Below, in pieces: positions 14,067 to 62,298 of a DNA stretch of 64,000 bases. The notes under the pieces were generated by a model. It was given only the letters and a program-made list of their open reading frames with translations. It ran no database searches and had not been told where the DNA came from. The DNA is taken from NCBI GenBank assembly GCA_030628945.1, contig DAOVPY010000002.1:23831-87830 (forward strand). Reading direction: 5' to 3'. This DNA comes from Candidatus Nealsonbacteria bacterium (GTDB taxonomy: Bacteria > Patescibacteriota > Minisyncoccia > Minisyncoccales > DAOVPY01). The position numbers and the translations under genes are program-made. Position 1 is the first letter of the stretch; the number at the start of each line of letters is the position of its first letter.

Positions 14067-14936
14067 ATGAAAGCAGAAATAAAAGCGGTTAAACCGCGGA
14101 TTTGGAATTTTGAAGTTGTGAAAGGAAAAAACGCCTGGGAAGAAGTTGTTGAATGCGCCAGGTTGTCTAATGTGCCTAAAATCATTGAAGACGAAATTGT
14201 TTTTTTGATGATGATTGAAAATGATTATGGCTCTATTTTAGAACATATAGGTATAAAATTTAATATTCAAATGAGTAAAGGATGCGCATTGGAATTACTT
14301 GAACACAGAATAGCAAGCCATTCTGCCGCGTCAACGCGATACAGCGACGCTAACAAAATGATACAAGGGCGAGAATCTGTTTACGAAATAATTATGCCGT
14401 GGGAATATCTGTCGTTGCCGGAAAACGACCCTAAAAGAGTTTCATTTTTACGGTCTGTTAAACGAGACATAGAAACTTATCAATATGAATTAAAAGAATT
14501 AGGCGCAAGAAGAGAAAGCGCGCGATATAATCTGCCGTTTGCGCACGCAGCAGGAATATATCATTACACTATAAATTTAAGATCTTTGTTGAATTTTTTT
14601 GGTTTGCGATTATGCGTACGCGCGTCAGATGAGATTCGTTCCGTCGCGGCTCAATTATATTTTGAACTTTTGAAAGTTTTACCAAATGTTAGGGGACTAG
14701 TTGGCTGCCGTGGATTTGCTCTGGCGGTTTGCCTGGAAAATAATGTTACAGGAGTCAGAAAAGGCAAACCGCTTTCAGGATATTCGCCTTGCTTATTTAG
14801 AAATCCAAAGAGCGATATTTATATTGCAACAAAGAAAGAAATAAGAAAGGGACTAGTTTTGCAAAAATTCAATTTAGAAAAAGCGATAAAAACCCAAACA
14901 AAAATCTTCAAAAAATGGGCTGCCTGGGAGGGATAA
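14067..14936 (+). CDS. divergent ThyX-like (Thy1 family) protein
   Basis: Start moved to MKAEIKAV behind a GAGGGAAAG RBS. The ThyX signature reads EHRIASHSAASTRY rather than RHR..S....S.RY. ARYNLP and NLRSLLNFFGLR are also present. Cys-rich C-terminal extension. Confidence 0.6.
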   Translation: MKAEIKAVKPRIWNFEVVKGKNAWEEVVECARLSNVPKIIEDEIVFLMMIENDYGSILEHIGIKFNIQMSKGCALELLEHRIASHSAASTRYSDANKMIQGRESVYEIIMPWEYLSLPENDPKRVSFLRSVKRDIETYQYELKELGARRESARYNLPFAHAAGIYHYTINLRSLLNFFGLRLCVRASDEIRSVAAQLYFELLKVLPNVRGLVGCRGFALAVCLENNVTGVRKGKPLSGYSPCLFRNPKSDIYIATKKEIRKGLVLQKFNLEKAIKTQTKIFKKWAAWEG

Positions 14937-14947
14937 TATTCAAAAAA

Positions 14948-14974
14948 AATCGGATTAAGAAATTTAATCCGATT
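14948..14974 (+). terminator. rho-independent terminator after the thyX-like gene
   Basis: aatcggattaa-gaaat-ttaatccgatt followed by tttt. Confidence 0.7.
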
Positions 14975-15016
14975 TTTGCTTTCAGAAGAGTTTTAAGTTA
15001 TAATAAGATAAAAAAC

Positions 15017-16519
15017 ATGAGGAAAATTGATATTTTAAGAAAAAAATATCCGCGATTTGTTTATAAGAGCTATTCTTACAAAATAACCGGCAAAAACCTG
15101 GAGATTTTTTTTGACTTCAAAATTCGCGATATTTCTTTTAAACCGAGGATAATCATTAAAAATATTGGCAAAAAACAACTGGCATTGCTGGAAAAAGGAG
15201 TATTAAATAATTTTATTTTTCATCTTGGCATGATGGAAATTCCCAGTTATTGGAAAACAACCTGCTCTCCAATAATTGAGGTCAAAGCCGGCTATCTGTC
15301 AAAAGAACAAATTAAGTGGTGGAAGGACTTTATTGTAAATGGAATGGGGCAGTTTTTTTACGAAAACAAAATCAACTTCACAAAGCCAAACTTTTTTAGA
15401 ATTATTTCAAATCAACAAAGATTTAACGGAGAACAGTTCTCCGTTAATTTAACGGAGAACTGTTCTCCGTTATCTTTTGCGAAAAACAGAGTGTTAATTC
15501 CGATGGGCGAAGGCAAAGATTCAATCGTAACATTAGAGTTATTAAAGCAGGAATTTGGAAAGAGCGGTGTAAATTGCTTTATTGTTAATCCTGCAAAAAA
15601 CCATTTTCAGATTCTAAAAATCGCCGGAATTGAGGAGCCAATAATTGTAGAGCGAAAAATTGACCCTCTTTTGTTGAAACTTTATAAGCAAGGATTTCTA
15701 AACGGACACACTCCGATTACAGCCCTGATTTCTAATTTAGCTGTTTTTACGGCTGTTTTATTCGGTTTCAACTATGTGGCGCTGTCCTGCGAAAGAAGCG
15801 CTAACGAAGAAAATATAAAATACCTCGGAAAAACAATCAATCACCAGTGGTCCAAAAGTTTTGAATTTGAAAAAAAATTCAGAAATTATTTAGATACATA
15901 CTTAATAAACTACTCTCTTATTCGCGCGAATAAGAGAGTAAAAAAGGTGAATTATTTCAGTTTTTTGAGGCCGTTGTATGAAATTCAAATCGCCAAGATT
16001 TTCTCAAATTTTCCGCAATATTTTTCAAGTTTTCTAAGCTGTAATGAGGCCAGAAAAACAAAGTCGGGAACCAAAAAAGCCACAGGCCAATGGTGCGGCA
16101 ATTGTTCAAAATGCCTGTTTATCTTTAGCATCTTATACCCTTTTATTGACGAGAAAAGATTGATTAAAATTTTTGGGCAAAATCTTTTTGAAAAAAAAGA
16201 ATTGTTGCCAATAATGAAACAGCTTCTTAAAAAGAAAGAAACTAAACCCTTTGAGTGTGTAGGCACAAAAAAAGAATCTTTGATCGCTTTTTACCTGAGC
16301 TGGGAGAAAGCAAAAAATTTGAATTTTTCGACAGGGGTACAAAAAGTCAAATTTTCTTTGTCTTCACTTCCTCCCCTTTTGGAATATTTTGAGAAACAAA
16401 TTTTGCCGAAATATCCAAATCTTGAAAAACAATCCGAAAAAATGATGAATTCGTGGAACAAGCAAAATTATGTTCCGAAAGAATTAGAAAAAGCGTTGAA
16501 GTTGAAATTTAAAAATTAA
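15017..16519 (+). CDS. hypothetical protein with a PP-loop-like ATP pyrophosphatase motif
   Basis: Start moved to MRKIDILRKKYPRF, after the terminator. IPMGEGKDSIV resembles the SGGKDS PP-loop. C-terminal WCGNCSKCLF cysteine motif. Confidence 0.6.
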   Translation: MRKIDILRKKYPRFVYKSYSYKITGKNLEIFFDFKIRDISFKPRIIIKNIGKKQLALLEKGVLNNFIFHLGMMEIPSYWKTTCSPIIEVKAGYLSKEQIKWWKDFIVNGMGQFFYENKINFTKPNFFRIISNQQRFNGEQFSVNLTENCSPLSFAKNRVLIPMGEGKDSIVTLELLKQEFGKSGVNCFIVNPAKNHFQILKIAGIEEPIIVERKIDPLLLKLYKQGFLNGHTPITALISNLAVFTAVLFGFNYVALSCERSANEENIKYLGKTINHQWSKSFEFEKKFRNYLDTYLINYSLIRANKRVKKVNYFSFLRPLYEIQIAKIFSNFPQYFSSFLSCNEARKTKSGTKKATGQWCGNCSKCLFIFSILYPFIDEKRLIKIFGQNLFEKKELLPIMKQLLKKKETKPFECVGTKKESLIAFYLSWEKAKNLNFSTGVQKVKFSLSSLPPLLEYFEKQILPKYPNLEKQSEKMMNSWNKQNYVPKELEKALKLKFKN

Positions 16520-16574
16520 AATCCCCTGATTAAAAAACCAAGGAATTTGCTTGAATTGAAAAAATAGCAACTGT

Positions 16575-17093
16575 TTAGGACTCTTTGCCGTATTGGCATT
16601 GGTCGTCAAGAATGTCTTTTGCTTGCCAATCCTCTACCCATTCTTGAATTTTGAAAATTTTATATTTTTTATTTTTTGTGGAACAAATCACTCTATTTAA
16701 GCCGGCGTTAATAAGCATTTTTTTGCAAATAAAACAAGGTAAAGCGTCTATTGCCTTGCCCTGCTCATCCTCTCCGCACAGAAACATATCACCGCGAAGC
16801 AAACTTACTCCCGCGCGCGCGGAATTAATTATAGCGTTCTGCTCGGCATGGACCGAACGGCAAATTTCATAACGTTGTCCGTGAGGGATATCCAATTTAT
16901 TGCGAAGGCATTCCCCTCTTTCAAAACAATCTTTTGTTTTCCTGGGCGCTCCGTTATAACCAGTAGCAATAATCTGGTCGTCGCAGACAATAATCGCGCC
17001 GAATTTAACCCGAAAACAGGTTGACCTCTGAGCCACCTGTTTAGCGATATCCAAATAATATTGTTCTTTGGAAATCCTAGACATATTATTCAA
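16575..17093 (-). CDS. deoxycytidylate (dCMP) deaminase
   Basis: Zinc motifs VHAEQNAI and [13 protein letters not shown]. 172 aa. Confidence 0.85.
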
Positions 17094-20949: not shown

Positions 20950-23034
20950 TTATTTTCTTACTTCCCACGACGGCTGGCTTTCCAGCGCTTGCGCGATTTT
21001 TTGATGGACTGCGTCTATTTCTTTCGCGGTCAGAGTTCTGTCCTTTGCCTGATAAATAATATGAAAGGCGAAATTCTTTTTTCCCTCGGGCAATTCTTCG
21101 CCTTCGTAAATATCAAAAACATCCACATCCATGATTAATTTCCCTCCTGCCGTGTTAATTTTATTCAAAACCTCCACCACTTTTACTTTCCTCGGCACCA
21201 AGACAGCGATATCCCGGACAGCTGCCGGATAAGCGGAAATTGGCTGATACACCTGTTCTTCCGAGCATTGCTTTGCCAATCTTTCAAAATCAATGTTAAA
21301 AGCAACTACTCTTTGTTTAATTTTCAAAACTCTCAAAACCCCCTCGGAAATCCCTGCTAAAAATCCTATCTCTTCTCTATTAATCTTTATAACCGCGCAT
21401 TGTTCAAATGGGCGCATACCCGATTTTTTTGACGAACACTCATTATACCAAATATCGCTGATGCCTAATTTATTTAATAGTAAATCAACTATTCCTTTTA
21501 ATTCGTAAAACCCTTGTTTTGTTTCTCTTGTTGTTATAACACCCGCCAGACTCGTTTTTTCATGATTTTTACCAATAAAAATTTTGCCAATCTCAAAAAC
21601 TTTTATTTTCTCAAAATATTCTTGATTTTTTTGAATATTTTTCAGTAAATTGGGAATCAAACTCGGCCTCAAATATTTCTGCTCAACACTCACCGGATTC
21701 TCAACCTCAAGTAATCCCGGAATTTGTAACTTAAAATTTGAAACTTGTTTAGGGGAAATAAAAGAATAATTATAGACCTCTGCAAATCCAACTTCTTTCA
21801 AAATATTTTTTACCATTCCCTGCCAAAACAAATTGTCATTTTTCTGCGGCGGAATTAAAGTTGTTGTTGGCAAAATCCCGTTAATTTTTTCATATCCAAA
21901 AATTCGCGCAATTTCCTCAATTAAATCTTCCGGAATAGAAATATCTAATCTGAATGTGGGAACGCCCACATTCAGAATTTTCCTGAACCACGCTTTTAAC
22001 GGGGGACTCCCCCGCAGGGCTGCTTTGCTCCCGCTTTCAACGGGATTCAAACCCAATGATTTTAGAATTTTTATTATCTCTTTTTTGGAAATTTTTACGC
22101 CCAATAATTTATCAATATAAACCAAGTCCAATTTGATTATTTTTGGCAAGACCTTCTTGGGATAAAAATCCAGCAAGCCATTTGCGATTTTTCCATGGCT
22201 AATTTCTTGAATTAAACTTGTCGCTTTATTTATTGCCGCTTCAGTTAAATTCGGGTCTAATCCATGTTCAAAACGATAAGAGGCGTCAGTTTTCAGATTC
22301 AGCAATTTTGAACCTCGCCGAATAATTTGCGGCTCAAAATTCGCGGCCTCCAAAACTATTGTTTTGGTATTTTCATCAATCTCCGCTTTTTTGCCGCCTT
22401 TAATCCCGGCTATGGCCAACGGTTCCTTACTATCCGCAATTACTAAAATATTCTCATCTAACTCATATTTACTCCCATCCAAAGTGATTATCTCTTCTCC
22501 TCTCTTCGCTTTTCTCACAATGATTGTTTTGCCTTTGATTTTCTCAAAATCAAAAGCGTGCAGGGGTTGTCCTGTTTCTAACATTACATAATTTGCCGCG
22601 TCAACCACGTTATTGATTGGCTGTAAACCGCAAATTTTCAACCGCTCTTGCATCCATTTTGGCGAAAGACCAACTTTTACGCCAGTAATCATCCGGGCTG
22701 TATAACGAGAACACGATTTTTTGTCCGCAACTTCTACATTTAAAAAATTCTTGATGTTTAACTTTGAACTTTTAACTTTAATTTTTAACTTTTCATTTTT
22801 GACTTTTAACTTTGTAATCGCTCCTATCTCTCTCGCTAATCCCAAATAACAAGCGCAATCCGGCACCCTGTTTGGCAAAATATCAACATCCAAAACCCAA
22901 TCCTTGCCAGATTTTCTAATTTCTTCAACTTCAAAACTGCGAATAGCCAAAATCTCTGCCAACTTCTCTGGCTTGGGTAATTTTTTATTGAAAAAAGATT
23001 GCAGCCAATTATATGAAAAAATCATAATAATCAA
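20950..23034 (-). CDS. pheT: phenylalanyl-tRNA synthetase beta subunit
   Basis: FSYNWLQSF start, B3/4 and B5 regions, DLIEEIARIFGYEKI. 694 aa. Overlaps the pheS stop by 4 nt. Confidence 0.9.
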   Translation of the reverse strand: MIIMIFSYNWLQSFFNKKLPKPEKLAEILAIRSFEVEEIRKSGKDWVLDVDILPNRVPDCACYLGLAREIGAITKLKVKNEKLKIKVKSSKLNIKNFLNVEVADKKSCSRYTARMITGVKVGLSPKWMQERLKICGLQPINNVVDAANYVMLETGQPLHAFDFEKIKGKTIIVRKAKRGEEIITLDGSKYELDENILVIADSKEPLAIAGIKGGKKAEIDENTKTIVLEAANFEPQIIRRGSKLLNLKTDASYRFEHGLDPNLTEAAINKATSLIQEISHGKIANGLLDFYPKKVLPKIIKLDLVYIDKLLGVKISKKEIIKILKSLGLNPVESGSKAALRGSPPLKAWFRKILNVGVPTFRLDISIPEDLIEEIARIFGYEKINGILPTTTLIPPQKNDNLFWQGMVKNILKEVGFAEVYNYSFISPKQVSNFKLQIPGLLEVENPVSVEQKYLRPSLIPNLLKNIQKNQEYFEKIKVFEIGKIFIGKNHEKTSLAGVITTRETKQGFYELKGIVDLLLNKLGISDIWYNECSSKKSGMRPFEQCAVIKINREEIGFLAGISEGVLRVLKIKQRVVAFNIDFERLAKQCSEEQVYQPISAYPAAVRDIAVLVPRKVKVVEVLNKINTAGGKLIMDVDVFDIYEGEELPEGKKNFAFHIIYQAKDRTLTAKEIDAVHQKIAQALESQPSWEVRK

Positions 23035-29472: not shown

Positions 29473-29904
29473 TTATATGCCTAACTCTCCCAACTTAGCG
29501 GCAAAATCGCCTACTTCCTTTTCAGTTCTCTTTTTATAATTATCCCATTTTTGCGCGTCCCAAATTTCTAATCTGTTATAAAGACCGCAAATTACCGTAT
29601 TTTTCTTTAGATTGGCGTATTGTTTTAAATACTCTGGAATAAGAATTCTGCCTAATTTATCCAAATCCACGGCCATTGCTCCGGCTAACATAATTCTCGC
29701 AAAGCCCCGGGCTTCCAGCTGGCTGGCAGGCAGCTTGCCTAATTTATCAGACATCACTTGCCATGCTTTTAAGGAATAGACAACTAAACAATTATCCAAA
29801 CCCCTGGTAATTATTGCGGTTTTACCAAGTTCTTTTCGAAATTTAGCTGGAAGAGCCAATCTTTTTTTAGTATCAATAGTATGTCTGTATTCGCCTATGA
29901 ACAT
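29473..29904 (-). CDS. mraZ: transcriptional regulator MraZ
   Basis: Start moved to MFIGEYRHTIDTKKRLALPAKFR. A second SpoVT/AbrB-like half contains DKLGRILIP. Confidence 0.9.
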   Translation of the reverse strand: MFIGEYRHTIDTKKRLALPAKFRKELGKTAIITRGLDNCLVVYSLKAWQVMSDKLGKLPASQLEARGFARIMLAGAMAVDLDKLGRILIPEYLKQYANLKKNTVICGLYNRLEIWDAQKWDNYKKRTEKEVGDFAAKLGELGI

Positions 29905-29961
29905 GCTGAATGTAGTACGAACTTTGTGAGTTATCCACAAAATTCGAAGTTATTAACATAG

Positions 29962-30003: not shown

Positions 30004-30041
30004 ATATGCCTCGTCAACCCTTATTTTTCCACAGAATATCC

Positions 30042-30075
30042 ACAACCCCGCCTTTGTGTACAAAAGCGGGGTTGT
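30042..30075. repeat. long GC-rich hairpin
   Basis: acaaccccgc ... gcggggttgt, with an internally pairing loop (tttgt/acaaa). Confidence 0.7.
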
Positions 30076-30108
30076 GCCCCACTCTAAAAATAAAAATCCC
30101 CTAAACCA

Positions 30109-30150
30109 ATCCATTACAAACTAATCCGATCGGATTAGTTTGTAATGGAT
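30109..30150. repeat. perfect 42-bp palindrome
   Basis: atccattacaaactaatccga|tcggattagtttgtaatggat with no mismatches. Confidence 0.95.
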
Positions 30151-42655: not shown

Positions 42656-44542
42656 TTATTTTTCTTTACGAAATATCATAATGAATTGATGAAATTGGTT
42701 GGCAACGAAAGCGTGGGGATATCCGAACGGATAAAGTTTTTGCGTTGCGTCATACCAAATTTTATAACCCTTGAAAGAAAGGTCTGGTACTTCAAGCAAC
42801 TTATCAGTAATAGAACAATGCAACATATTATGCCCGTTTCCATTCGGCTGTAAATCTTTAACGAAAATCGCAATGTATCCTTTTGGTTTTAGATATTTCG
42901 CCGACTTCGCGATAACATCTTTTAGAGATTCAAGGAAATTTTCTCTCTCCATATTTCCTAAATCGCTTTCGTGATTTGTAAAAGGGGTGGCGACAGCAAA
43001 ACCGGTTTTCTTTTTTTTCTGACCTGTCCTTTTTTTGCTCAACATTTCTCCGTATGGCGGATCAGTAAGAATAAAATCAATTTGAGTATTCTTTGGTAAA
43101 ACTTTGTCTATTTCTAAAGAATTTCCAACAATCGCTTTTTGTTCTGTAATACCAAGCTCTTTGCAAACTTTTTTATACAAGTCAATATATTTTTTAGATA
43201 GATCAACGCCAATTCCTTTTCTATCGGACAATGAACATGCAATAAGCGTTCCACCAACGCCCATGAAAGGATCAAATACTATTTGATTTTCCTTTGTAAA
43301 GAAATCAACGAATTTTTTCATCAATTGCGGAGGTTTTGGCGAAGGATGCTTGCCTCGCAAATGATGAGCAAAACCGTCAGCTCCTTTTGTTGAATAATGC
43401 GTAACTTCAACAGAATTAAGAAAGTATATCCATTCAGAGCCGCTTAAATCGTTAAGTTTATTTTTTTGATTAATCCTTTTCAAATAATAAATTTTTTCTT
43501 TTACTCCGTTTTTTTGTTTTCCGTTGCTATTACTTTTGTATCTTTGATAATTTTGCTCTGCGATTTCGGTTTTTCCTGCTTTATTGAATAACTTTAATAT
43601 TTCGTTTTCGGACATTATCCCGTCATCGTTATAACTTAAAAGCAAATGTTTAAAATTATTTTTCTTTATGATTTCGTCAAGTGCTTTTATTCCTGTTCTC
43701 GCGTTGCAAAATTCCGACTTTTGGTTTTCGTAAGTCCTCATTCCAGTAACACCTTTAATTTCCGGTTTGTCCCATTTAGCGATAGTTTCCAAAATGTGAT
43801 AGTTGGGGGCGTATTGTCGCTCATTATACGGCGGATCAAGATATAAAATATCAATACATTTTACTTGGTCTAAAACTTTTAATCCGTTGCCATAATAAAC
43901 TTTATTTGTTGTCTCGCTTTTTATGATTTCCGGCACTTCAAGCGTTAATTTTTTGAAAGCTCTTTTGTCCCATTCTTTCAAAAATGCCGAATATGTTCCG
44001 CTTATATTTGCCACAAACGGCACGGCCTCAATAAGCGAGGCGAGTAAAAAATAATATTCTTGCTCATTGATAAGATTTGATTTTTCCCATTCTTCTGTTT
44101 TTTCTCTTATTGCGTCAATTCGTTTAGAATTTTCGCCAGTAAAATATTTACGATGATGATTTTGTCCTTGCGTGCCTTCGGGAGAATAATTTTTATAAAC
44201 AAACCCTTCCACACCCTCTAAATTATTAAGGTATTTAATTATTTCTTTGGCATTTTGGCTGTCGCTTATAAAAAGCGTTTCCTCAACAGGATCAATTTTT
44301 AAGTGTTTTAATAATTTTGTAAATTTAGGATATTGATTTTGCTCAATATAAACTTTTTGCAGAACATAAGAAAAATACAAAAGGTCAGACGAGATAATTT
44401 TGTAGCCGAGTTTCTTAAAATGTTTTGCAACACTTCCGGTTCCGGCGAATAAATCGCAAAAAACATTACCCTTCAAATCCTTTCCTTTAACAAAGGTCTC
44501 TATAAAATCAAGTAAATTTTCTTTACAGCCAATAAATCGCAT
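42656..44542 (-). CDS. fused two-domain DNA methyltransferase (Dam/D12-like plus N6A/N4C-type)
   Basis: The N-terminal half has FIGCKENLLDFI, DLFAGTGSV, YLDPPYNERQY. The C-terminal half has HPSPKPPQLMKKFV, FDPFMGVGGT, ILTDPPYGE. Confidence 0.85.
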   Translation of the reverse strand: MRFIGCKENLLDFIETFVKGKDLKGNVFCDLFAGTGSVAKHFKKLGYKIISSDLLYFSYVLQKVYIEQNQYPKFTKLLKHLKIDPVEETLFISDSQNAKEIIKYLNNLEGVEGFVYKNYSPEGTQGQNHHRKYFTGENSKRIDAIREKTEEWEKSNLINEQEYYFLLASLIEAVPFVANISGTYSAFLKEWDKRAFKKLTLEVPEIIKSETTNKVYYGNGLKVLDQVKCIDILYLDPPYNERQYAPNYHILETIAKWDKPEIKGVTGMRTYENQKSEFCNARTGIKALDEIIKKNNFKHLLLSYNDDGIMSENEILKLFNKAGKTEIAEQNYQRYKSNSNGKQKNGVKEKIYYLKRINQKNKLNDLSGSEWIYFLNSVEVTHYSTKGADGFAHHLRGKHPSPKPPQLMKKFVDFFTKENQIVFDPFMGVGGTLIACSLSDRKGIGVDLSKKYIDLYKKVCKELGITEQKAIVGNSLEIDKVLPKNTQIDFILTDPPYGEMLSKKRTGQKKKKTGFAVATPFTNHESDLGNMERENFLESLKDVIAKSAKYLKPKGYIAIFVKDLQPNGNGHNMLHCSITDKLLEVPDLSFKGYKIWYDATQKLYPFGYPHAFVANQFHQFIMIFRKEK

Positions 44543-48399: not shown

Positions 48400-49662
48400 A
48401 TGACTAAAAAAACGCAGACTATTTTATCTTTGATTTGTTTGTTTCTTCTTTTCTTGACAGCGCCAATATCCATTTTTTACTCCCAGGGATACCGTTTTGA
48501 TTTTGAGGCGAAAAAAATTGTCCAAACCGGCGGTTTTTACGCCAAAACCCTGCCGAAAAGCGCTGAAATCCATATCAATGAAAAACTCAGAGAAAAAACC
48601 GACTTTTTATTTGGAACCGCGCTTATTAAAAATCTTTTGCCCAAAACCTATGAAATAGAAATAAAAAAACAGGGCTACCACCCCTGGAAAAAATCTTTGG
48701 AAATAAAAGAAAAACAGGTTACCGAGGCAAAAAATATTGTGTTAATTCCTGAAAATCCTGATTTTGTCCTTTTAGATAAAAATATAAAAAACTTTTGGTT
48801 TTCGCCAAATTCGCAAAAAATAATTCTTAAAAAAGAAAACGAAAAAGGCTGGATTTTAGATATTCTTGACATAAAACAGGATACTCAAACTCCGCTCCTC
48901 TCCGAAGAAAAAGTCGGACAAACGAATATTTTAGACCTTGTCTGGTCATCAGACTCAAATAAAATTTTATTGAAAACCCTGAATTCATTTTTTGTTTTAG
49001 AATTAGATAATCCGTCTATTATTTTCCCTTTGGACTTTTTAGGGAAAAACATTGAAAAAATATCTTTTGACCCATCCAATACAAAAAAAATATTTTTCTT
49101 CATGCCTTCAACAACCGCCAATTCTCTTTTTCTAATGAACTATCGCGAAAAAAAAATCCCTGAACCAATTTTAAATAATGTAATAACCTATGAAAATTTT
49201 GGGAAAGATATTATTTGGCTCTCAAGTGAGGGATTTGTTTATCGCAGTAATTCCAACGGAAAAATTTTACAAGTTTTTAATTCCAAGCCGCTCAAAACGC
49301 CTGAATCAATTAAAAATTTTATATTTTCTCCCGACAATAAAAAAATCGCTTATTCCAGCGATTTTGAAATCTGGATTTTCTTTTTGGAGCAGCAAGATTG
49401 CCAGCCCCAAAAAGCCATGGGAGAAAAAGTATTTCTAACCCGTTTTTCAAAAAAAATTGACAACTGCTTCTGGCTTACAAGCCATTATTTAATATTTAAT
49501 GTGGACAACAAAATAAAAATCGCGGAAATTGACGACCGCGACAGAATAAATATCATTGAATTGTGTGAATTTAAAAATCCGCAACTCTTCTTTAATCAAA
49601 ATGACAAAAAACTCTATATTCTGAGCGAAGGAAATTTATATCAATCAAAAAAATTATACTAA
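48400..49662 (+). CDS. membrane-anchored PEGA-domain / beta-propeller-like protein
   Basis: N-terminal TM. PEGA-like PKSAEIHINEKL...LPKTYEIEIKKQGYHPW. The C-terminal region has TolB-like repeats (FSPNSQKI, WSSDSNKI, FSPDNKKIAY). Confidence 0.55.
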   Translation: MTKKTQTILSLICLFLLFLTAPISIFYSQGYRFDFEAKKIVQTGGFYAKTLPKSAEIHINEKLREKTDFLFGTALIKNLLPKTYEIEIKKQGYHPWKKSLEIKEKQVTEAKNIVLIPENPDFVLLDKNIKNFWFSPNSQKIILKKENEKGWILDILDIKQDTQTPLLSEEKVGQTNILDLVWSSDSNKILLKTLNSFFVLELDNPSIIFPLDFLGKNIEKISFDPSNTKKIFFFMPSTTANSLFLMNYREKKIPEPILNNVITYENFGKDIIWLSSEGFVYRSNSNGKILQVFNSKPLKTPESIKNFIFSPDNKKIAYSSDFEIWIFFLEQQDCQPQKAMGEKVFLTRFSKKIDNCFWLTSHYLIFNVDNKIKIAEIDDRDRINIIELCEFKNPQLFFNQNDKKLYILSEGNLYQSKKLY

Positions 49663-50280
49663 TTTCTGGCATTCTTCCTGATATTCGCAATATTCGCAAC
49701 GCCAGTGTTCAATATCAGAAGGTATTGGAGGAATGCTATCTTCCTTAATCTGTTTTTCCAGAACTTCAAATTCCTTCAGAATATTTTTGACTAAACTTTC
49801 GTCATAATCAATTAAAAACTCTTTTAATTCCTGATTATCCTTATTTTCATAAAGCACTATGCCTTTTGGAATCTTGAAATAGTGTAAATAGAGTTGTAGT
49901 TGTTTTAAGTGACCTTGATCCGGAGCGGTTAATTTATCAAATTTGTATTTAGAAATACTTTTGATTTCTACCACGCAGGGTTTTCCATCTAATCCAATAA
50001 TTACATCTGCTCTCCCTGAAAAAAGTTGTCCATGCGGGGTCTTTACTTCTGCCGCCTGAACCACTCCCAAACTAAAAAGAGCGCTCACAATTCTGGTATG
50101 GGTCTGCTCGCCGTTATCAAAAATTCTTAGGACTCGCGGCTCGGTTTCTTTCTTGGGATATTTCTTGAATTTAAAATAAACCTGGCGCGGACATCTCGCA
50201 ACGTCAGTAACATAAAAATGCTTCTGCTCCCTGTCTTTAAATCTATCCCTATAAAATTGGTCAATGAGTTCCTTAAGCAT
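49654..50280 (-). CDS. Cas4/RecB-like PD-(D/E)xK exonuclease with a Fe-S cysteine cluster
   Basis: N-terminal Cys (DVARCPRQVYF), GRADVIIG...VVEIKS, QLQLY, C-terminal CEYCEYQEEC. Confidence 0.75.
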   Translation of the reverse strand: MLKELIDQFYRDRFKDREQKHFYVTDVARCPRQVYFKFKKYPKKETEPRVLRIFDNGEQTHTRIVSALFSLGVVQAAEVKTPHGQLFSGRADVIIGLDGKPCVVEIKSISKYKFDKLTAPDQGHLKQLQLYLHYFKIPKGIVLYENKDNQELKEFLIDYDESLVKNILKEFEVLEKQIKEDSIPPIPSDIEHWRCEYCEYQEECQKLV

Positions 50281-50448: not shown

Positions 50449-50640
50449 CTAAACTACGCGATCAATGTAGCGGTTGAGTTGTCTAATCAGCGGCTTCATT
50501 ATTAAAAGTCGCTCTCTGTATCTTAACAGTTTTCTATATTTTACTTCTGGGATTTTATAAATCCTTTGTTTTGTTTTAGTTTTATTTTCCATAGTTTTCC
50601 ACAGCTTAACCTTTCTACTTTTAATTTTAATGATTTTCAA
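50449..50640 (-). CDS. small basic hypothetical protein
   Basis: 63 aa, Lys/Arg-rich, downstream of the integrase. No motif recognised. Confidence 0.35.
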   Translation of the reverse strand: MKIIKIKSRKVKLWKTMENKTKTKQRIYKIPEVKYRKLLRYRERLLIMKPLIRQLNRYIDRVV

Positions 50641-50684
50641 ACCTTTGTCAAGTCCTGACTTGTCCCCAACATTTCCACAGCCCC

Positions 50685-51578
50685 CTAAACCTCATTCATA
50701 ATCCTCTGGTGCGTCTCTTTCGCTTTCCTTATTTCCACTTTCGCATAAAATTTCAAAGTGGTGCGCGGCGACTTATGCCGAGCAAGATGTTGAACCTCTT
50801 TTATTGTCGCACCCTTGTCTAATAATAAAGAACAAAAACTTCTTCTTAAAGAATGATGAGTGATCTGTTTCGTAAATCCAAACTCCTTTCTATATTTTAA
50901 CAAATGCTTTCTGGCTACACAAGACGATAATCTTGAAATCTTTTGCGGATTGTAAGTAATAAATAAATCCGGGCACTCATCTCCTCGCGTTGCCAAATAT
51001 CTTTTGAGCCAACTCAAACTTCTTTCCGAAAAATAAAGCCATCCTTCATTCTCTCCTTTTGCTCCTTTAATTTTTACTTCTCTATTTTCTAAATCAATAC
51101 CATTTTTATTAAGCGACAAAATTTCTGAAATCCTTGCTCCGGTTGAAAAAAGTATTTCGTATAATGTGCGATCCCGCAATCCGTAAAGAGTATGTAAGGA
51201 TATTTTTTCAACAAAATTGTTAAACTCTGTCTCGGTTAAAAAGTCCTGTTCTTTTTCGGCAACTTTTGGGACCTCAATTTCTCTCCAGTCAAACGGAATT
51301 TTTTCCCCGCTTTCTTTTAAGAATTTTAGATAGCGCCGAAGGGTGCAAATGGCCCGGGTTGGTCCATGTTCTCCGTGAGTCCTGCCGGCTTCTATAACTG
51401 AAGCCACATCGGCGATTTTCAAATGTTTTATTTTTTTATCTATCAATAAAGAATGCGAAACCGCGCCAAACAAAAATCGGCGATGTTCCCGGATTGTTTT
51501 TTCAGTCAATCCTTTCTGTCTCATGTATTCAAAATAATTTTGGAAGCCGTCTTTTACTCTCATAAAAAAACCACTCAT
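50685..51578 (-). CDS. tyrosine site-specific recombinase/integrase
   Basis: SAM-like N-domain. Catalytic pattern GARISEIL, HHSLRRSF, LARHKSPRTTLKFY. Confidence 0.9.
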   Translation of the reverse strand: MSGFFMRVKDGFQNYFEYMRQKGLTEKTIREHRRFLFGAVSHSLLIDKKIKHLKIADVASVIEAGRTHGEHGPTRAICTLRRYLKFLKESGEKIPFDWREIEVPKVAEKEQDFLTETEFNNFVEKISLHTLYGLRDRTLYEILFSTGARISEILSLNKNGIDLENREVKIKGAKGENEGWLYFSERSLSWLKRYLATRGDECPDLFITYNPQKISRLSSCVARKHLLKYRKEFGFTKQITHHSLRRSFCSLLLDKGATIKEVQHLARHKSPRTTLKFYAKVEIRKAKETHQRIMNEV

Positions 51579-51800
51579 CTACTCCCATCTTAACCTGGAG
51601 GGCAAAATAGTTTCAATGAGTGGCTCTTCTATTATACCAAAAGAACCAATTTCAATGAAACCGCTTACCTCCAGGTTCTTGCCAGAAGGCAAGGCGTCCC
51701 AAGGGACACAAGCGGTTCGTATTTAGTATAATATCCTATCTTACACAAACTAAAAACCCTGTCAAGGGCGACAAGATTTTTAGCAAAATTCTGGATCCTT

Positions 51801-52013
51801 TTATATTTGCGATTTGTTTATCAGTATAAGCTCGCTCGCTTCGTTTTGCCACTCCCTAAGCGCTTTCAGCATTGCCGCTACAATTCCGATTATTCCTGCC
51901 GGAAGCAAAATTTGAAATTCTTGCGAACTCAAAAGCCCGATGACTCCCGCCACTACAAAAATCTCAATGAACCGCATCACTATTCTCTTTATGGTTGTAT
52001 TATAAATGCTCAT
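51801..52013 (-). CDS. holin-like small membrane protein
   Basis: 70 aa with two TM helices, next to the lysin gene. Confidence 0.45.
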   Translation of the reverse strand: MSIYNTTIKRIVMRFIEIFVVAGVIGLLSSQEFQILLPAGIIGIVAAMLKALREWQNEASELILINKSQI

Positions 52014-52051
52014 GATGGTTTTTAGATTTCGTTTTTAAATTATTCGACCTT

Positions 52052-52438
52052 TTATAAATACTTCAAATAAAGCCCTGACCAATATCCAACCCAGTCATCT
52101 ATGCGTCCTTTCCTATATCTGTCAATCATTAAATTAACGCATTTGTTAATATCATTAAGGGCTTCCCATTTTGTAATTAGTTGCATTTTTTCAATATACC
52201 ATTCTGAATTATACTGACATAAACCATAATCATAACTGCCGTTCCAATTTCTGTTTATCGCTTTCGGGTTCATATCTGATTCAGCGTAGATTACTGCCAC
52301 TATCAAATTGCATTCCCATTCTTCTAATCTTCTCTTTTCGCAAATTCTTCTGACTTTTAATTCAACCCTTAATTTTTTAAGAGCTTGAAGCTGTAAAGAG
52401 ATTATTTTTTTAATAAGAGAAATGATTTTGAATTTCAT
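52052..52438 (-). CDS. lytic transglycosylase (SLT-domain) endolysin
   Basis: Start moved to MKFKIISL so that its ATG overlaps the upstream TGA. VIYAESDMNPKA...YDYGLCQYN fits the SLT E-S...GLxQ pattern. Confidence 0.7.
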   Translation of the reverse strand: MKFKIISLIKKIISLQLQALKKLRVELKVRRICEKRRLEEWECNLIVAVIYAESDMNPKAINRNWNGSYDYGLCQYNSEWYIEKMQLITKWEALNDINKCVNLMIDRYRKGRIDDWVGYWSGLYLKYL

Positions 52439-52701
52439 TTTGTTAAAATATAAATTATTAAAGCGGTAACGATAGTCACTAACGCGGTAATAAAATGAGA
52501 CAATCTCCAAGAGGGCTTTTCCACATTCTTAATAAGCGCTAAATTTAATTTTTCCCGCGATTCTTTTCTAAAATCGTTAAAATCTTTTACAAAGTGAGGG
52601 AAATCATTATCCAGAAATTTCAAAAACCGCTCTGATAAAACTTCCTGCCGGGCCATTCGTTCATATAGAGATATCTCTTTTTTGTTATTGTTTTCTGACA
52701 T
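52435..52701 (-). CDS. small membrane protein (holin or spanin candidate)
   Basis: 88 aa with a C-terminal TM (ITALVTIVTALIIYIL). Translationally coupled to the lysin. Confidence 0.45.
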   Translation of the reverse strand: MSENNNKKEISLYERMARQEVLSERFLKFLDNDFPHFVKDFNDFRKESREKLNLALIKNVEKPSWRLSHFITALVTIVTALIIYILTK

Positions 52702-52741
52702 AGGACTTTACAAAATTTTAATTATAAAGTATTAAATAATA

Positions 52742-52909
52742 ATGAAAGAGCGAATTAAAACAATCTGGGAATTTATCAAAACTAATTGGTTTAAAATTGC
52801 TATTTTAATATCGCTCTATTGGTTTATTCAGGAAATCAGTTATTTAAATAACTTAAGTATAGATATTTGGCATCACTCCCCTTCTTCTTCTCTTCCCGGT
52901 CTTCATTAG
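52742..52909 (+). CDS. possible small TM protein, below the ORF-track cutoff
   Basis: Own translation MKERIKTIWEFIKTNWFKIAILISLYWFIQEISYLNNLSIDIWHHSPSSSLPGLH. Opposite strand to its neighbours. Confidence 0.25.
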   Translation: MKERIKTIWEFIKTNWFKIAILISLYWFIQEISYLNNLSIDIWHHSPSSSLPGLH

Positions 52910-52910
52910 T

Positions 52911-55900
52911 CTATAATCCTGGCAAAGTCGGCAATGATGGACTAAACAATTCCCCCATCGTTTTCTTTTTTTCTAATCCCGGCAACGTGGGAAGTTCAAG
53001 TTCCAATTTTTTAAATTCTTCAGGCAATTTGCCTGATTTTTTTTCTTTATATTTAGACGCTTTTCCAAACCACCAATAATATAATTTTCCACCAATGGGG
53101 ATATTCTGAACTGTTCTCATATCATTTACATCAAAACATTCATCTGGATTTTTCCATACTTTGGTTAAATCTTTCCATACATCGTCCACTACATTAGTCG
53201 GTGGTAGTATCTCGCCCGCAACGCGAGCGCCAAGTCCTTGTTCGGCTAATTCTCTTCTTTCCCACTTACTCGCAAAAAATAATTTAGCCGTGCTTTCTAT
53301 TACTCTATCAGAAAGTTTCATTTCTCTTCCGAGTATTATATCTTTTATTTCATCAGCAGTTGCTTCACAAGCCACTAATGCGGCTGTCAATTTTAGAAAA
53401 TTTGAGAAACCCTCAACAAAAGTTTCTTTTTTTGTCATTTTTGAAATAGCTTCTCGTCTATAAATATCCATCATTTTTATCGTCCAAGTTTTAAGCATAT
53501 AAAATATCTTACCATTTCCGCTTTTAAGATATTGTTCTGGCACTTCTGATAAAGCGACTGGCTGAAAATCTAATAATTTATTAAAAGCCAAATACTTCAC
53601 ATCATCAGTAATCTCTCCGCGTTGTAAATCTCTAATAATATCATCGGTTTTATCTCCGAAAACATCCGTTAATTCTTTCATAAATTTTTTATACTTTTGG
53701 ATATTTTTAGATTGATGCTGAAGTCGTCTAATAGTTGAATTGATTAAACTTTCTTTTCCAATAGCGTCTATTTTATCTAATCCAATTATCTTAAAAGTCT
53801 TATTAACCGCTTGCGACCCTTTGCTGGCATCGGCAAATTCTGAGGCAATTCTTTCTATCCCTAAATCAGCTTTCTTAATTTTTGCCTTTCCTATTATTAT
53901 TCTTGGCAATCCTGTAATTGTTCTAATTAGTCCGCCGGAATAAATACTGAAAGCTAAGTCGCCAATCTGGGTTATAGCGTTATAAGGACTACCCATTACG
54001 GTAATATAAGAGAGATTTTTAATTGGTCCGACAACCCTACCCATTTTTCCAGGGTTAAATCTCGCTCTTAAAATAGATGTTAATTCTTTTTCCTGGGCTA
54101 CTGTTATTTTTCCTTTGGCCATTAAATCCATAACATAAGCGCCGATACTATTGTCTATGTGTAATCCTCCCTCCACATCGGTTATAATATGTTTTCCAAA
54201 AAATTTGCGAGCCTCTATTGCATCATTCACCTGGTCAATATAAGAAATAATGGTTTTATCCGATTCTAAATAAAATTGGTTGAGTTCTGGACTGATAAAA
54301 TCCAATACTCTTTCCTTCATCGCGGCAGTTTTTGAAAGAGCTACCTGTCCTCGGCCATATCCTCTTATGGCTGTATTGATAAGATACGCTTTTTCATCGG
54401 CGTCTAACACTCTGCCTAATATCATTTCTTTTTCTTTAATGGCCGCGTCAAATTTACTCCAGTCATCTCTTTTCATTATAAATTCTAAAAATCCTTCAGG
54501 GTCTTTGATTATTCTCGGCCAATAATTTTTCTCGTAGCCAAGTTCGTATCCAACATCATTGGCTCTCTTGTAAAGGTCATCAAGAGTATCTTTAACTTTT
54601 AGATACTCATTTTCCATTTTGTATTTTTTCGCTAATTCAAATACTTTATCTTGTTTTCCATTTTTCAGAGCCAAATCAAGTTCCAGCCAATCTGTTTTAC
54701 TCATTCCTTTTTTTATTAAAAATCCTCTGGGTTTTGCTTTTTCTAAAAAGTTTTTGGCAATCGTTTTATCCGCCGCGCTTTTAGTTTTAATTTCATACTC
54801 CATTCTTCTAATCGCTCTTTTCAAAGAAATATCTATATTTTCAAGCCGGGTAGAAATAACTCCTATTATATTTTCAATTTCTTTTTTGGGCTCTTTCGCC
54901 GCTTTTTTTATTCTTTCTATTTTCGGTTCCTTAATCCCTTTCAAAATTCTGTTCGCTTCATACATTTCTTCTGTAATCTCCGGAGCTTCTTTTCCTATTG
55001 CTTCAATTTTTGGAACAAACCCTCTTGCTTTCTTAAAAGCCAACCGCTCTTTCATTTTATTAAGAATTTTTTCAAGTTCTGTTGTGTTCATTTTTCTAAG
55101 CGGTTTTAAAATTCCAAACTCTTTTTTTATTTCGTTAATTGGGGTTTGATTAAATTCGCCTAATAATTTTTGATAAGATATTTTTGTTCTCATTAATCCC
55201 CTTTCCTTATGTATATTTTTTAAAATTCCTTTTTCTATATCAGATTGAATAGTTGCCATTTCTATTTTTTGCTTATTTAAAATTTCAGCAATTTTGTTTT
55301 GTATTTTTTGAGAAATACTTTTTAATTCAGATTCATCCGCTTGTTTAATTCTGGCTATCTCTTTTCTATCGGCGATTTGAGATAATAATTTTTTTCTCAT
55401 TTCTCTTTTTCCTGCTTCTACTCCTATCCGAGCTCCTCGCGCTTCAGCCCTCAATTTTGCTTTTAATGCTGCTTTTTCTGTTGGTATTATTTTTATACGA
55501 CCTGCCTCTATTGCCGTTGGTGAAATAACTTCACCTGGTTTTTCTATCGGTTTAATAATCTGTTTCAATGTTTTTGTGGGTTTTATCTCTGCGGCTTTAA
55601 TTATCTTCTCTGACTTTATCTTTGTAGTTTTTTGTATCTCATCAACCCTATTTAGTATTTTGGCTATTTCATCGGCTTTGTTTGTTTCTGCGATTACTTT
55701 TGAAAAAGAAGGAATTAAATCATCGGCAACATTTACTTTTTTAAGAATTTTTACCACATCATCAACTTTATTCATTTTTGCTAAAATTTTAATCACTCCG
55801 CTTTTCCCAGCTCCCCAGCCGGTAAAATCAAGTCCGATTACAGCACCAACTCCTAACGCACCGAATCCTAATGGATATTTTTCAAATGGTTTTATTTTAT

Positions 55901-56414: not shown

Positions 56415-56458
56415 ATCTAAAAAAGATAAATAAAATAAAACTTCTAATCCTCGGTTTT

Positions 56459-57688: not shown

Positions 57689-57689
57689 A

Positions 57690-57905
57690 TTATTTTTGTG
57701 GTTGTTTCGCTAATTTAATCTTGCCCGTCTTAAGGTCTATTTCGTAGTTTTGATTCATATCTAAAGAATAACGAGGGAGCAAATTTTTAATATAAATCTG
57801 ATTTTGAATTTCTAAAGCCTGAGAAATCAAGATATGCTGATTTATCAAATCAGCTCTTTTTTTTAATTCTTCTAAATCTTCTGATTTTAATTTTTTCTCA
57901 AACAT
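57690..57905 (-). CDS. phage hypothetical small protein
   Basis: 71 aa. Its stop is adjacent to the next gene's start. Confidence 0.4.
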   Translation of the reverse strand: MFEKKLKSEDLEELKKRADLINQHILISQALEIQNQIYIKNLLPRYSLDMNQNYEIDLKTGKIKLAKQPQK

Positions 57906-57978
57906 AATTTTGATTTGATTTATTGACTTAATTCGACGTTTAATTTGACTTATTTTTTAATTAAGTTATCATTTAATA

Positions 57979-58533: not shown

Positions 58534-58561
58534 AAAGAACTAATCTTTAATTTTATTTTCT

Positions 58562-58586
58562 GTCGCTCTTTATGAGCGATTTTTTA
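58562..58586. terminator. bidirectional hairpin between convergent genes
   Basis: gtcgctc-tttat-gagcgat followed by tttttattt. Confidence 0.6.
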
Positions 58587-61608: not shown

Positions 61609-61633
61609 TTTACTTTATTTTTTAATTATGTAT

Positions 61634-62293: not shown

Positions 62294-62298
62294 ATTTT

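What the first reader, a model, noticed from the sequence alone, without database searches (positions are those of the whole stretch)
15421..15472. Tandem pair of 26-bp hairpin units inside a coding region
atttaacggagaacagttctccgtta is followed immediately by atttaacggagaactgttctccgtta. Each unit is a perfect hairpin (aacggagaac-N-gttctccgtt), and the second core is the exact reverse complement of the first. The pair encodes FNGEQFSVNLTENCSPLS in the PP-loop-motif protein. This looks like a duplicated or inverted mini-element inserted in-frame.
Basis: seen in the sequence. Interest (0 to 1): 0.55.

Follow-up and report, generated by a model that had tools for sequence, protein, structure and literature searches.

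The report
In-frame palindromic repeat doublet in murL
The two hairpin units are real and form one 49-bp perfect palindrome that is translated as a floppy linker in a cell-wall enzyme, and they belong to a family of tiny palindromic repeats, not found in the literature searched, that is scattered through the genomes of these ultra-small bacteria, after genes and sometimes inside them.

Summary
Window 15421-15472 is 2 x 26 bp with one difference, at the central base. Positions 15424-15472 form a perfect 24+1+24 palindrome. An identical copy occurs in an assembly from a second sample.

It lies in the linker between the two domains of a MurL-like epimerase of a Patescibacterium. It encodes residues 170-187, which AlphaFold models as disordered. 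Distant homologues lack it. Close relatives carry one or two palindromic units at the same site, with different sequences.

The unit is not private to murL. Its consensus, TW-ACGGAGAAC-N-GTTCTCCGT-WA, recurs at 68 distinct sites on low-GC metagenome contigs. These sites mostly sit 3-40 nt after stop codons. About 12 lie deep inside housekeeping genes. One is the same kind of doublet, inserted in the inter-domain linker of an unrelated glycosyltransferase. A close relative carries five units in 21 kb.

Two other palindromes in this murL gene also encode disordered insertions.

Best reading: a palindromic repeat element resembling REP/REPIN repeats and the Rickettsia palindromic elements, tolerated in frame. 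How it spreads is unknown. I found no transposase in the window and no target-site duplication. Any function is unproven.

The parts
15421..15446 (.). Unit 1 of the doublet. The palindromic core TTAACGGAGAAC-A-GTTCTCCGTTAA lies at 15423-15447.
   Evidence: It matches the family consensus TW-ACGGAGAAC-N-GTTCTCCGT-WA derived.
15447..15472 (.). Unit 2 of the doublet. The core TAACGGAGAAC-T-GTTCTCCGTTA lies at 15450-15472. It is in the same reading frame as the single unit of relative L090/L001 and has the same right flank.
15424..15472 (.). The doublet read as a whole: a perfect 49-bp palindrome (24+1+24). As RNA it can fold as one long hairpin or as two short ones. A pattern scan calls it terminator-like on both strands.
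   Evidence: 100% complementary arms. (-41.1 kcal/mol, z -9.55). (20-pair stem followed by ATCTTTTG).
15422..15475 (+). Codons for residues 170-187 (FNGEQFSVNLTENCSPLS). This is the inter-domain linker peptide encoded by the doublet.
   Evidence: translation. (hypervariable, gapped alignment columns). (AlphaFold pLDDT below 50 for residues 170-188 in a model with pTM 0.84).
15017..16519 (+). Host gene: MurL-like UDP-MurNAc-L-Ala-L-Glu epimerase with MurL_N and PP-loop C-terminal domains. The probable start is the ATG at 15017. The open frame runs from 14915 and overlaps the end of thyX.
15911..15940 (.). Second perfect palindrome in the same gene (15+15, TACTCTCTTATTCGC|GCGAATAAGAGAGTA). It encodes YSLIRANKRV inside a 12-aa insertion shared only with P0002/L081. 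L081 has a different but equally perfect 16+16 palindrome there.
   Evidence: The arms match 13 of 15 positions of a terminator-positioned palindrome in the unrelated contig L136, 141-178. pLDDT is below 50 at residues 333-339.
16314..16355 (.). Third palindrome, imperfect (14 pairs, 1 mismatch, 12-nt loop), in the variable C-terminal loop of murL. Relatives carry other palindromes at this loop, including family-type TACAGAGAAC-A-GTTCTCTGTA in L085/L090 and AACGAGAAC-N-GTTCTCGTT in L031/L036.
   Evidence: pLDDT is below 50 at residues 471-482.

Best explanation
The 52 bp are an inverted doublet of a very short, dispersed palindromic repeat element of Patescibacteria. The unit consensus is TW-ACGGAGAAC-N-GTTCTCCGT-WA. 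Family members mostly sit a few to a few tens of bases after stop codons, where they look like bidirectional terminator or 3'-end hairpins. They can also lie in frame in protein regions that tolerate insertions. Here the element occupies the linker between the two MurL domains and is translated as a disordered 17-18-residue stretch. It entered this site in an ancestor of a murL subclade. Since then it has behaved as palindromic DNA rather than as protein-coding sequence: units were duplicated (mostly in inverted orientation), lost, loop-flipped, decayed and made perfect again, while the peptide changed freely. Shown: the element is real; it is an insertion; the family exists and is multi-copy; it has the stated placement; the encoded peptide is modelled as disordered. 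Inferred: arm identity is kept by arm-to-arm templated correction (template switching at the replication fork). Also inferred: spread to new loci uses a hairpin-dependent DNA mechanism that has not been identified. I judge this copy most likely neutral or selfish. Its one predictable side effect is a very stable mRNA hairpin, which could pause or terminate transcription when translation is uncoupled.
For: Insertion in a tolerant site: the linker columns are gapped in most of 30 homologues. The linker is 31-38 aa without the element and 41-49 aa with palindromic DNA. Residues 170-188 have pLDDT below 50.

Structure is conserved but sequence and peptide are not. L090/L001 have a single unit. L083 has 2 units with period 27. 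L082 has a 41-bp perfect palindrome and L081 a 43-bp perfect palindrome. Between L086 and L087 the unit loop (TCCGT/ACGGA) and the inter-unit spacer are inverted.

The family is real. The metagenome scan returned more than 120 stretches. On low-GC contigs, copies that the search pattern did not force still keep the 19-nt consensus. GAGAAC-N-GTTCTC is the commonest 6+1+6 palindrome there: 8 of 224, where I estimate about 0.05 would be expected. Several contigs carry 2-3 copies. The 21-kb locus L213, from a close relative, has five units.

Placement: of 68 distinct sites, 23 lie between co-directional genes, 8 between convergent genes and 1 between divergent genes. The median distance after the upstream stop codon is about 16 nt. 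Twelve sites are deep inside ORFs of at least 200 aa, in RecG, RNase HII, RtcA, FemAB, Wzy_C and GT4 proteins.

Independent in-frame doublet: the GT4 glycosyltransferase on L150 carries an 8-12 aa insertion, GERFSVGRTVLP, in its inter-domain linker. Only its closest relatives share it.

Doublets: the central bases are complementary in 6 of 8 independent doublets. Comparing the roughly 89% identical contigs L151 and L102, the same site holds a single unit in one and a doublet in the other.

Other observations: there is no excess of isolated half sites. The second murL palindrome has a relative in terminator position on L136.
Against: Only one locus of the family lies in this 64-kb window. No transposase was found: there is no Y1/RAYT hit among the window's ORFs. 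The flanks show no target-site duplication, only palindromic extension. The way the element spreads is therefore unknown.

The metagenome set was selected with the pattern itself, and I estimate the chance yield of that scan at tens of hits, which is not negligible. Some coding hits may therefore be chance or may have formed in place. In RtcA (L122) there is no length change. In TyrRS (L104) only a 4-aa insertion lies at the 5' arm, next to pre-existing F-S-V codons.

The linker palindromes of L081, L086/L087 and P0004 differ strongly in sequence from the family consensus. Either they diverged in place with arm correction, or the site was hit repeatedly.

Taxonomy of the metagenome contigs was checked by homologue names only for L150.
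Confidence: 0.68

Rival explanations
1. The palindromes have a purely local mutational origin. They arise in place by replication template switching, that is, inverted duplication of neighbouring sequence followed by correction of near-palindromes to perfect ones. They persist only where the protein tolerates them. On this view there is no element family and no mobility.
For: In this window's PheT gene the 3' arm of palindrome 21947-21978 encodes the conserved P-T-F-R-L-D motif and the 5' arm lies in an insertion, as expected for an inverted copy of adjacent coding DNA. The TyrRS case on L104 looks the same. In L081 and L082 each unit is imperfect but the two units are perfectly complementary, as a single inverted duplication would give. 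Loops and spacer are flipped between L086 and L087. A published parallel exists: the perfect coding palindromes in Nematomorpha mitochondria, for which arm conversion by template switching was proposed (PMC6649704).
Against: It cannot explain why the same 19-23-nt sequence sits at dozens of unrelated loci, several per contig, with the consensus kept in copies the search did not select. It also cannot explain why two different murL palindromes have relatives at terminator positions on another contig. It remains the best account of how arms stay perfect and how doublets form.
Confidence: 0.12
2. The hairpin is a selected mRNA (or DNA) structure of murL itself. It might pause ribosomes or RNA polymerase at the domain boundary, or act as a translation-dependent internal attenuator of a cell-wall gene.
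For: Palindromic DNA is kept at exactly this linker site in at least eight lineages while both sequence and peptide change. The structure is very stable. The site is terminator-like on the sense strand, with a U-rich tail. It sits precisely between the two domains.
Against: Most MurL homologues lack it, including other Patescibacteria. It decays in L083, L085, L090 and P0004. The three mismatches seen are A·C on the sense strand, not the G·U expected if an RNA structure were under selection. The same element occurs in unrelated genes and after stop codons, so a function specific to murL is not needed. No expression data were available.
Confidence: 0.1
3. The palindrome is a binding site for a double-stranded-DNA-binding protein, such as an operator or a parS- or matS-like chromosome site, that happens to lie in a gene.
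For: It is a conserved 7-1-7-type palindrome at low copy number across diverse genomes, found both in and between genes.
Against: Only 1 of 32 classifiable intergenic sites lies between divergent genes, and the sites cluster just after stop codons. In 16 of 47 sites the complementarity extends at least 4 pairs beyond the consensus using site-specific flanks. That points to a hairpin rather than a duplex recognition site. Doublet spacing varies from 18 to 27 nt.
Confidence: 0.05
4. The doublet is an assembly or amplification artefact, such as a fold-back chimera or a collapsed or expanded repeat.
For: Perfect palindromes do mislead assemblers. The Logan contig L091 folds back exactly at the neighbouring 30-bp palindrome 15911-15940.
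Against: The doublet is identical in assemblies from two samples, which differ from each other by 3 SNPs nearby. The reading frame is intact through it. Relatives from other studies carry homologous units at the same codons.
Confidence: 0.02

Closest known systems
Rickettsia palindromic elements (RPE). The description here rests on my own knowledge of Ogata et al. 2000; the contrast with perfect coding palindromes is discussed in PMC6649704.
   Same: Both are dispersed palindromic repeats found in intergenic DNA and inserted in frame into housekeeping genes at positions the protein tolerates, and both are translated as extra surface or loop peptide. Both occur in small, AT-rich, reduced genomes, and no transposase is known for either.
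   Different: RPEs are about 100-150 bp and restricted to Rickettsia, and they lose repeat identity over time. This unit is 19-25 bp (49 bp as a doublet). It is perfect in this lineage. Most family members sit right after stop codons like terminators.
REP sequences and REPINs, which are inverted REP doublets mobilised by RAYT transposases (PMC3116915, PMC3337134; seen).
   Same: Both are short palindromes, placed at the 3' ends of genes between co-directional or convergent genes, and both occur as singlets, inverted doublets and small clusters. The inverted doublet forms a long hairpin.
   Different: No conserved 5' GTAG tetranucleotide is present. No RAYT gene was seen. Copy number looks low, roughly one locus per 7-60 kb in the DNA held here. 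REPs are extragenic by definition, whereas this copy and about a dozen others are inside ORFs. The units here are spaced only 18-27 nt apart.
Mobile G+C clusters, double-hairpin elements and 'byp' elements of fungal mitochondria (from my own knowledge; byps are mentioned in PMC6649704).
   Same: They are tiny, relatively GC-rich hairpin elements in AT-rich genomes. They form tandem arrays and are found in variable regions of genes.
   Different: They are organellar. The byp elements are skipped by the ribosome, whereas here the frame is kept open through the element in every homologue, so it is read.
Perfect coding palindromes in Nematomorpha mitochondrial genes (PMC6649704).
   Same: They are perfect inverted repeats inside functional protein-coding genes. 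They are gained and lost between species, and their arm identity is apparently kept by a conversion or template-switch process rather than by a demonstrated function.
   Different: There both arms encode conserved protein and the sequences are locus-specific, up to 284 bp. Here the palindromes encode dispensable linker peptide and share one consensus across loci and genomes.

Membership tests
REP / REPIN | A short (about 20-40 nt) palindromic unit present at many dispersed loci in a genome | tested here: met
   The unit is 19-25 nt. There are 68 distinct sites on 82 low-GC metagenome loci. Several contigs carry 2-3 copies. There are five units in 21 kb of L213. Only one locus lies in this 64-kb window, so copy number is far below classic REPs.
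REP / REPIN | Extragenic placement at the 3' ends of genes (co-directional or convergent spacers, not divergent ones) | tested here: not met
   The family as a whole fits: 31 of 32 classifiable intergenic sites, with a median of about 16 nt after the stop codon. This copy does not fit, because it lies about 400 nt inside murL. About 12 other copies are also deep inside ORFs.
REP / REPIN | Inverted doublets that form a long hairpin (the REPIN unit) | tested here: met
   Six of 8 independent doublets have complementary central bases, which makes them perfect long palindromes. This includes the window copy.
REP / REPIN | A conserved 5' GT[AG]G tetranucleotide next to the palindrome | tested here: not met
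   Position-by-position counts over 50 sites give aa.TW-ACGGAGAAC...; no GTAG is present.
REP / REPIN | A cognate RAYT (Y1/HUH transposase) gene in the genome | tested here: inconclusive
   There is no Y1_Tnp hit or other transposase hit among the window's ORFs. However, the window is only part of the genome.
Rickettsia palindromic elements (RPE) | In-frame insertion of a repeated palindromic element into protein-coding genes at tolerated positions | tested here: met
   MurL linker. GT4 linker on L150. Variable loop of GluRS on L213.
Rickettsia palindromic elements (RPE) | Element length about 100-150 bp with sequence homology to RPE families of Rickettsia | tested here: not met
   The unit is 19-25 bp and the doublet 49 bp. 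The host is a Patescibacterium.
MITE (non-autonomous transposon) | Terminal inverted repeats flanked by a direct target-site duplication, with a related full-length insertion sequence | tested here: not met
   The flanks are complementary (stem extension), not direct repeats. There is no excess of isolated half sites that could be the ends of an insertion sequence.
Intrinsic (Rho-independent) terminator | A stable stem-loop followed by a U tract, placed downstream of a coding region, that ends transcription | tested here: inconclusive
   The sequence pattern is met on both strands, and intergenic family members are placed as terminators would be. This copy is inside the ORF, and termination itself cannot be tested with these tools.
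DNA uptake sequences (DUS/USS) | A large genome-wide excess of the single (unpaired) short motif | tested here: not met
   There are 26 solo half sites (about half of them decayed full sites) against a control mean of 18. There are no further copies in the window.
Programmed translational bypass elements (T4 gene 60, mitochondrial byps) | The inserted segment is not read: its frame or stop codons are incompatible with read-through | tested here: not met
   The frame is open through the element in the window and in every relative, although lengths and sequences differ.
Palindrome formed and maintained by template switching | Perfect arms with lineage-specific sequence, inverted copies of adjacent DNA, and loop inversions between relatives | tested here: met
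   L081 and L082 have perfect long palindromes built of imperfect units. Loop and spacer are inverted between L086 and L087. PheT 21947-21978 fits the same pattern. The enzymatic mechanism itself cannot be tested here.

The most novel reading that the evidence does not exclude
Patescibacteria carry a previously undescribed class of ultra-short (19-25 bp) self-complementary repeat elements. The elements multiply as hairpins, typically as inverted doublets, without any recognisable transposase. They supply the hairpins at the 3' ends of many genes. They also repeatedly seed new disordered linker and loop peptides in essential enzymes such as MurL, GT4 glycosyltransferase, GluRS, RecG and RNase HII.
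Probability: 0.45. Interest if true: 0.72.

Novelty: new variant of a known kind. Interest (0 to 1): 0.58.

Why it matters
Patescibacteria have some of the smallest and most streamlined bacterial genomes, and repeat families are not expected there. A tiny palindromic element that acts as a terminator-like hairpin after genes, and that is also tolerated in frame inside essential cell-wall and translation enzymes, would matter in three ways. It would be a simple, traceable source of protein insertions. It would give a marker for strain typing. It would also be a practical hazard for assembly and gene calling, since one public contig already folds back at a neighbouring palindrome. Finally, it offers a bacterial system for asking how perfect palindromes are kept perfect inside coding DNA.

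Tried and rejected
- Rfam scan of 14800-16700: nothing reached a gathering score. There were only weak hairpin-like hits to miRNA and sRNA models.
- Search for the core elsewhere in the window: none found.
- Literature searches for palindromic, in-frame or REP elements in CPR/Patescibacteria, and for the motif itself: nothing relevant.
- DNA-uptake-sequence idea: rejected, because there is no excess of half sites.
- Operator or parS-like site: rejected on placement and on stem extension by the flanks.
- Gene-cassette idea (attC-like sites), raised by an extra gene next to the L102 doublet: rejected. The comparison of L102 with L151 shows two separate indels, one a gene and one a 25-nt unit.
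- A supposed second site on L151 (9127) turned out to be a 2-mismatch chance match inside a gene.
- The repeat on L120 (83 nt, 1092 bp apart) may be an assembly end effect and was not used.
- Scan of viral contigs: one hit only, so this is not a phage feature.
- My own Pfam scan gave no hit for the MurL ORF, although precomputed Pfam annotations list MurL_N and MurL_epimerase_C. Identification therefore rests on NCBIfam and the precomputed annotations.
Full report
**1. The observation**

Window 15421-15472 reads ATTTAACGGAGAACAGTTCTCCGTTA | ATTTAACGGAGAACTGTTCTCCGTTA. Tandem Repeats Finder reports period 26, 2.0 copies and 96% matches. The single difference is the central base of each hairpin, A versus T. 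Unit 2 is therefore the reverse complement of unit 1, and 15424-15472 is one perfect palindrome with 24-nt arms around one base. As RNA the region folds at -41.1 kcal/mol, with z = -9.55. The core AACGGAGAAC occurs nowhere else in the window.

The same 52 bp are present in two assemblies from different samples. L089 is identical to the window over 21.6 kb. L212 differs by 3 SNPs in 5.2 kb. Raw reads could not be checked.

**2. Where it sits**

The host ORF (14915-16519, probable start at 15017) is a MurL-like epimerase. It matches NCBIfam NF041275 at E 6e-69, and the identical database protein carries precomputed MurL_N and MurL_epimerase_C domains. It follows mraY-like and thyX genes. Homologue names and the contig titles place it in Patescibacteria: Parcubacteria or Minisyncoccales.

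In a 30-sequence alignment the doublet falls in the hypervariable, gapped linker between the N-terminal domain and the PP-loop domain. An AlphaFold model (pTM 0.84) has only three low-confidence segments inside the mature protein: residues 170-188, 333-339 and 471-482. These coincide with the peptides encoded by three palindromes:
- the doublet at 15421-15472;
- a perfect 15+15 palindrome at 15911-15940, which forms a 12-aa insertion shared only with P0002;
- an imperfect palindrome at 16314-16355.

**3. History at the murL linker**

I fetched DNA for ten close relatives. Distant homologues have a 31-38 aa linker and no comparable palindrome (one, L007, has an unrelated 12-pair one). One subclade has 41-49 aa and palindromic DNA at the same place. 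The sequences differ between lineages:
- L090/L001: one unit, TAACGAAGAACAGTTCTCCGTTA.
- L083: two units with period 27.
- L085: two overlapping hairpins.
- L082: a 41-bp perfect palindrome, GGAGACCCGTTCTCCCCCAA-a-TTGGGGGAGAACGGGTCTCC.
- L081: a 43-bp perfect palindrome with a different stem.
- L086 and L087: two units each. Between them, the unit loop (TCCGT versus ACGGA) and the spacer (GAATTGAACGAAGC versus GCTTCGTTCAATTT) are inverted.

The encoded peptides are unrelated wherever the DNA differs. What is conserved is therefore self-complementarity, not sequence or protein. In L081 and L082 each unit is imperfect while the two units are perfectly complementary, which is the signature of an inverted duplication.

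The flanks of L090's single unit match the left flank of window unit 1 and the right flank of window unit 2. The length difference is 27 nt (+26, +3, -2), so the reading frame was preserved. Because most relatives have two units, the doublet is probably old.

**4. The unit is a member of a dispersed family**

A metagenome scan with ACGRAGAACNGTTCTYCGT returned more than 120 stretches. None of the 80 loci I checked by tblastn contained murL. On contigs with GC at or below 0.46 nearly all hits are the perfect GGAG form.

The decisive evidence comes from copies the pattern did not select. On the same contigs, further sites keep the 19-nt consensus (L102, L103, L105, L131, L146, L150, L152, L170; more on L178, L180, L186). 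GAGAAC-N-GTTCTC is the most frequent 6+1+6 palindrome among unselected sites: 8 of 224, where I estimate about 0.05 would be expected.

L213 is 21 kb from a close relative, the genome of P0004. It carries five units:
- one in the N-domain loop of murL;
- an internal doublet in a variable loop of GluRS;
- a doublet at the end of GluRS whose central TAA is the stop codon.

Position counts give the consensus aa.TW-ACGGAGAAC-N-GTTCTCCGT-WA.tt. Isolated half sites are not in excess.

**5. Placement and behaviour of the family**

The 68 distinct sites break down as follows:

| Context | Sites |
|---|---|
| Between co-directional genes | 23 |
| Between convergent genes | 8 |
| Between divergent genes | 1 |
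| Deep inside ORFs of at least 200 aa | 12 |
| In short or edge ORFs (ambiguous) | 11 |
| At contig edges | 13 |

The median distance after the upstream stop codon is about 16 nt. In 16 of 47 sites the stem is extended at least 4 pairs by site-specific flanks. This is the placement of terminator or REP-type hairpins.

The 12 coding sites are in RecG, RNase HII, RtcA, FemAB, Wzy_C, a GT4 glycosyltransferase and others. The GT4 case (L150) is a close parallel to the finding. It is a doublet with complementary centres (G then C) that forms an 8-12 aa insertion in the inter-domain linker, and only the closest relatives share it. The homologues are named Parcubacteria, Falkowbacteria and Patescibacteria.

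Among 8 independent doublets, with spacing 18-27 nt, 6 are inverted and 2 are direct. L102 and L151, which are about 89% identical, differ at one site by a single unit versus a doublet.

The second murL palindrome (15911-15940) has a relative matching 13 of 15 arm positions on contig L136. There it sits after a gene, about 400 bp from a family-1 hairpin that lies right after the sodN stop codon.

**6. Interpretation**

The best reading is a palindromic repeat element that resembles REP/REPIN repeats in placement and doublet form, and RPEs in its in-frame insertions. This copy is tolerated in frame because it lies in a disordered linker.

Perfect arms with lineage-specific sequence, flipped loops, and doublets made of inverted copies fit arm-to-arm templated correction by template switching. 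The same process was proposed for the perfect coding palindromes of Nematomorpha (PMC6649704). The PheT palindrome in this window (21947-21978) shows that process directly: its 3' arm encodes the conserved PTFRLD motif and its 5' arm lies in an insertion.

How units reach new loci is not known. I found no transposase in the window, no target-site duplication and no GTAG motif. A function for this copy is unproven. The pattern scan calls it terminator-like on both strands, so pausing or termination when translation is uncoupled is the one concrete, testable consequence.

**7. Rivals**

- A purely local template-switch origin does not explain one consensus at dozens of loci.
- A murL-specific selected RNA structure is weakened by three things: the element is absent from most homologues, it decays in several lineages, and it occurs in unrelated genes.
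- A duplex protein-binding site is contradicted by placement and by stem extension through the flanks.
- An assembly artefact is contradicted by two assemblies and by homologous units in other studies. Note, though, that Logan contig L091 does fold back at the neighbouring 30-bp palindrome.

**8. Caveats**

- The metagenome set was selected by the pattern itself, and I estimate the chance yield at tens of hits. Some coding hits show no insertion (RtcA) or only a half-arm insertion (TyrRS).
- Taxonomy of most contigs was inferred from GC content only.
- No paper describing such a family in these bacteria was found in the searchable library. That library is not exhaustive.

Noticed in passing
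window 15510, 15532, 15623: The only 3 differences between the window and the second-sample assembly L212 over 5,239 bp all fall within 114 bp, 38-151 bp downstream of the palindrome. One changes the PP-loop motif from GEGKDS to GVGKDS. This could be palindrome-associated mutagenesis or a short recombination tract.
   Followed up: partly
L091 (Logan contig SRR13892593_917249), fold point = window 15911-15940: This public contig is an inverted chimera: dCMP deaminase and the murL 3' part appear in both orientations, joined at the 30-bp perfect palindrome. The database proteins P0121 and P0122 are products of this artefact.
   Followed up: yes
window 21947-21978 (PheT, 20950-23034, minus strand): This palindrome has 13 pairs inside Phe-tRNA synthetase beta. 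Its 3' arm encodes the conserved P-T-F-R-L-D of the B5 domain. Its 5' arm lies in an insertion relative to the Thermus enzyme, so it looks like an inverted duplication of adjacent coding DNA.
   Followed up: partly
window 30109-30150 and 30041-30076: A 42-bp perfect palindrome (21+21, no loop) and a second GC-rich 16-pair hairpin lie upstream of mraZ (29473-29937, minus strand), in a divergent intergenic region ahead of the mraZ-mraW-ftsI cluster. Their function is unknown, and they are not the GAGAAC family.
   Followed up: no
window 14945-14977: A 14+5+14 perfect hairpin with A and T tails sits between the thyX stop (14936) and the probable murL start (15017). The listed murL ORF start at 14915 is probably too far upstream: residues 1-32 have pLDDT below 50 and no homologue aligns to them.
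   Followed up: partly
window about 50600-64000: This looks like a phage-like or integrated region. It has a tyrosine integrase (50685-51575), an SLT lysozyme-like gene (52052-52507), a 1166-aa ORF with no Pfam hit and a weak tail-fibre hit (58584-60032). It also has a perfect 33-bp x 2.7 tandem repeat at 62304-62392.
   Followed up: no
window 42656-44539 and 49654-50277: A fused D12-class and N6_N4 DNA methyltransferase (627 aa) and a Cas4-like PD-(D/E)XK nuclease sit among ORFs with no Pfam hit. This may be a defence or mobile island.
   Followed up: no
L213 16892-16922: In a close relative, the stop codon of GluRS is the central TAA of a family doublet. The last six residues (AREQFS) are encoded by one unit and the other unit is in the 3' UTR. 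An element at a gene end has become part of the coding sequence.
   Followed up: partly
window 14915-16519: My Pfam scan returned no family for this protein. The precomputed annotations for the identical database protein list PF26299 and PF26298. The local Pfam copy may lack these models.
   Followed up: no
L213 11885-11911; L180 16-125: There are other coding or clustered palindromes in relatives. One is a GC-rich 11-pair palindrome inside a MurD-like gene on L213. Another is a cluster of three family units within 110 nt on L180.
   Followed up: no
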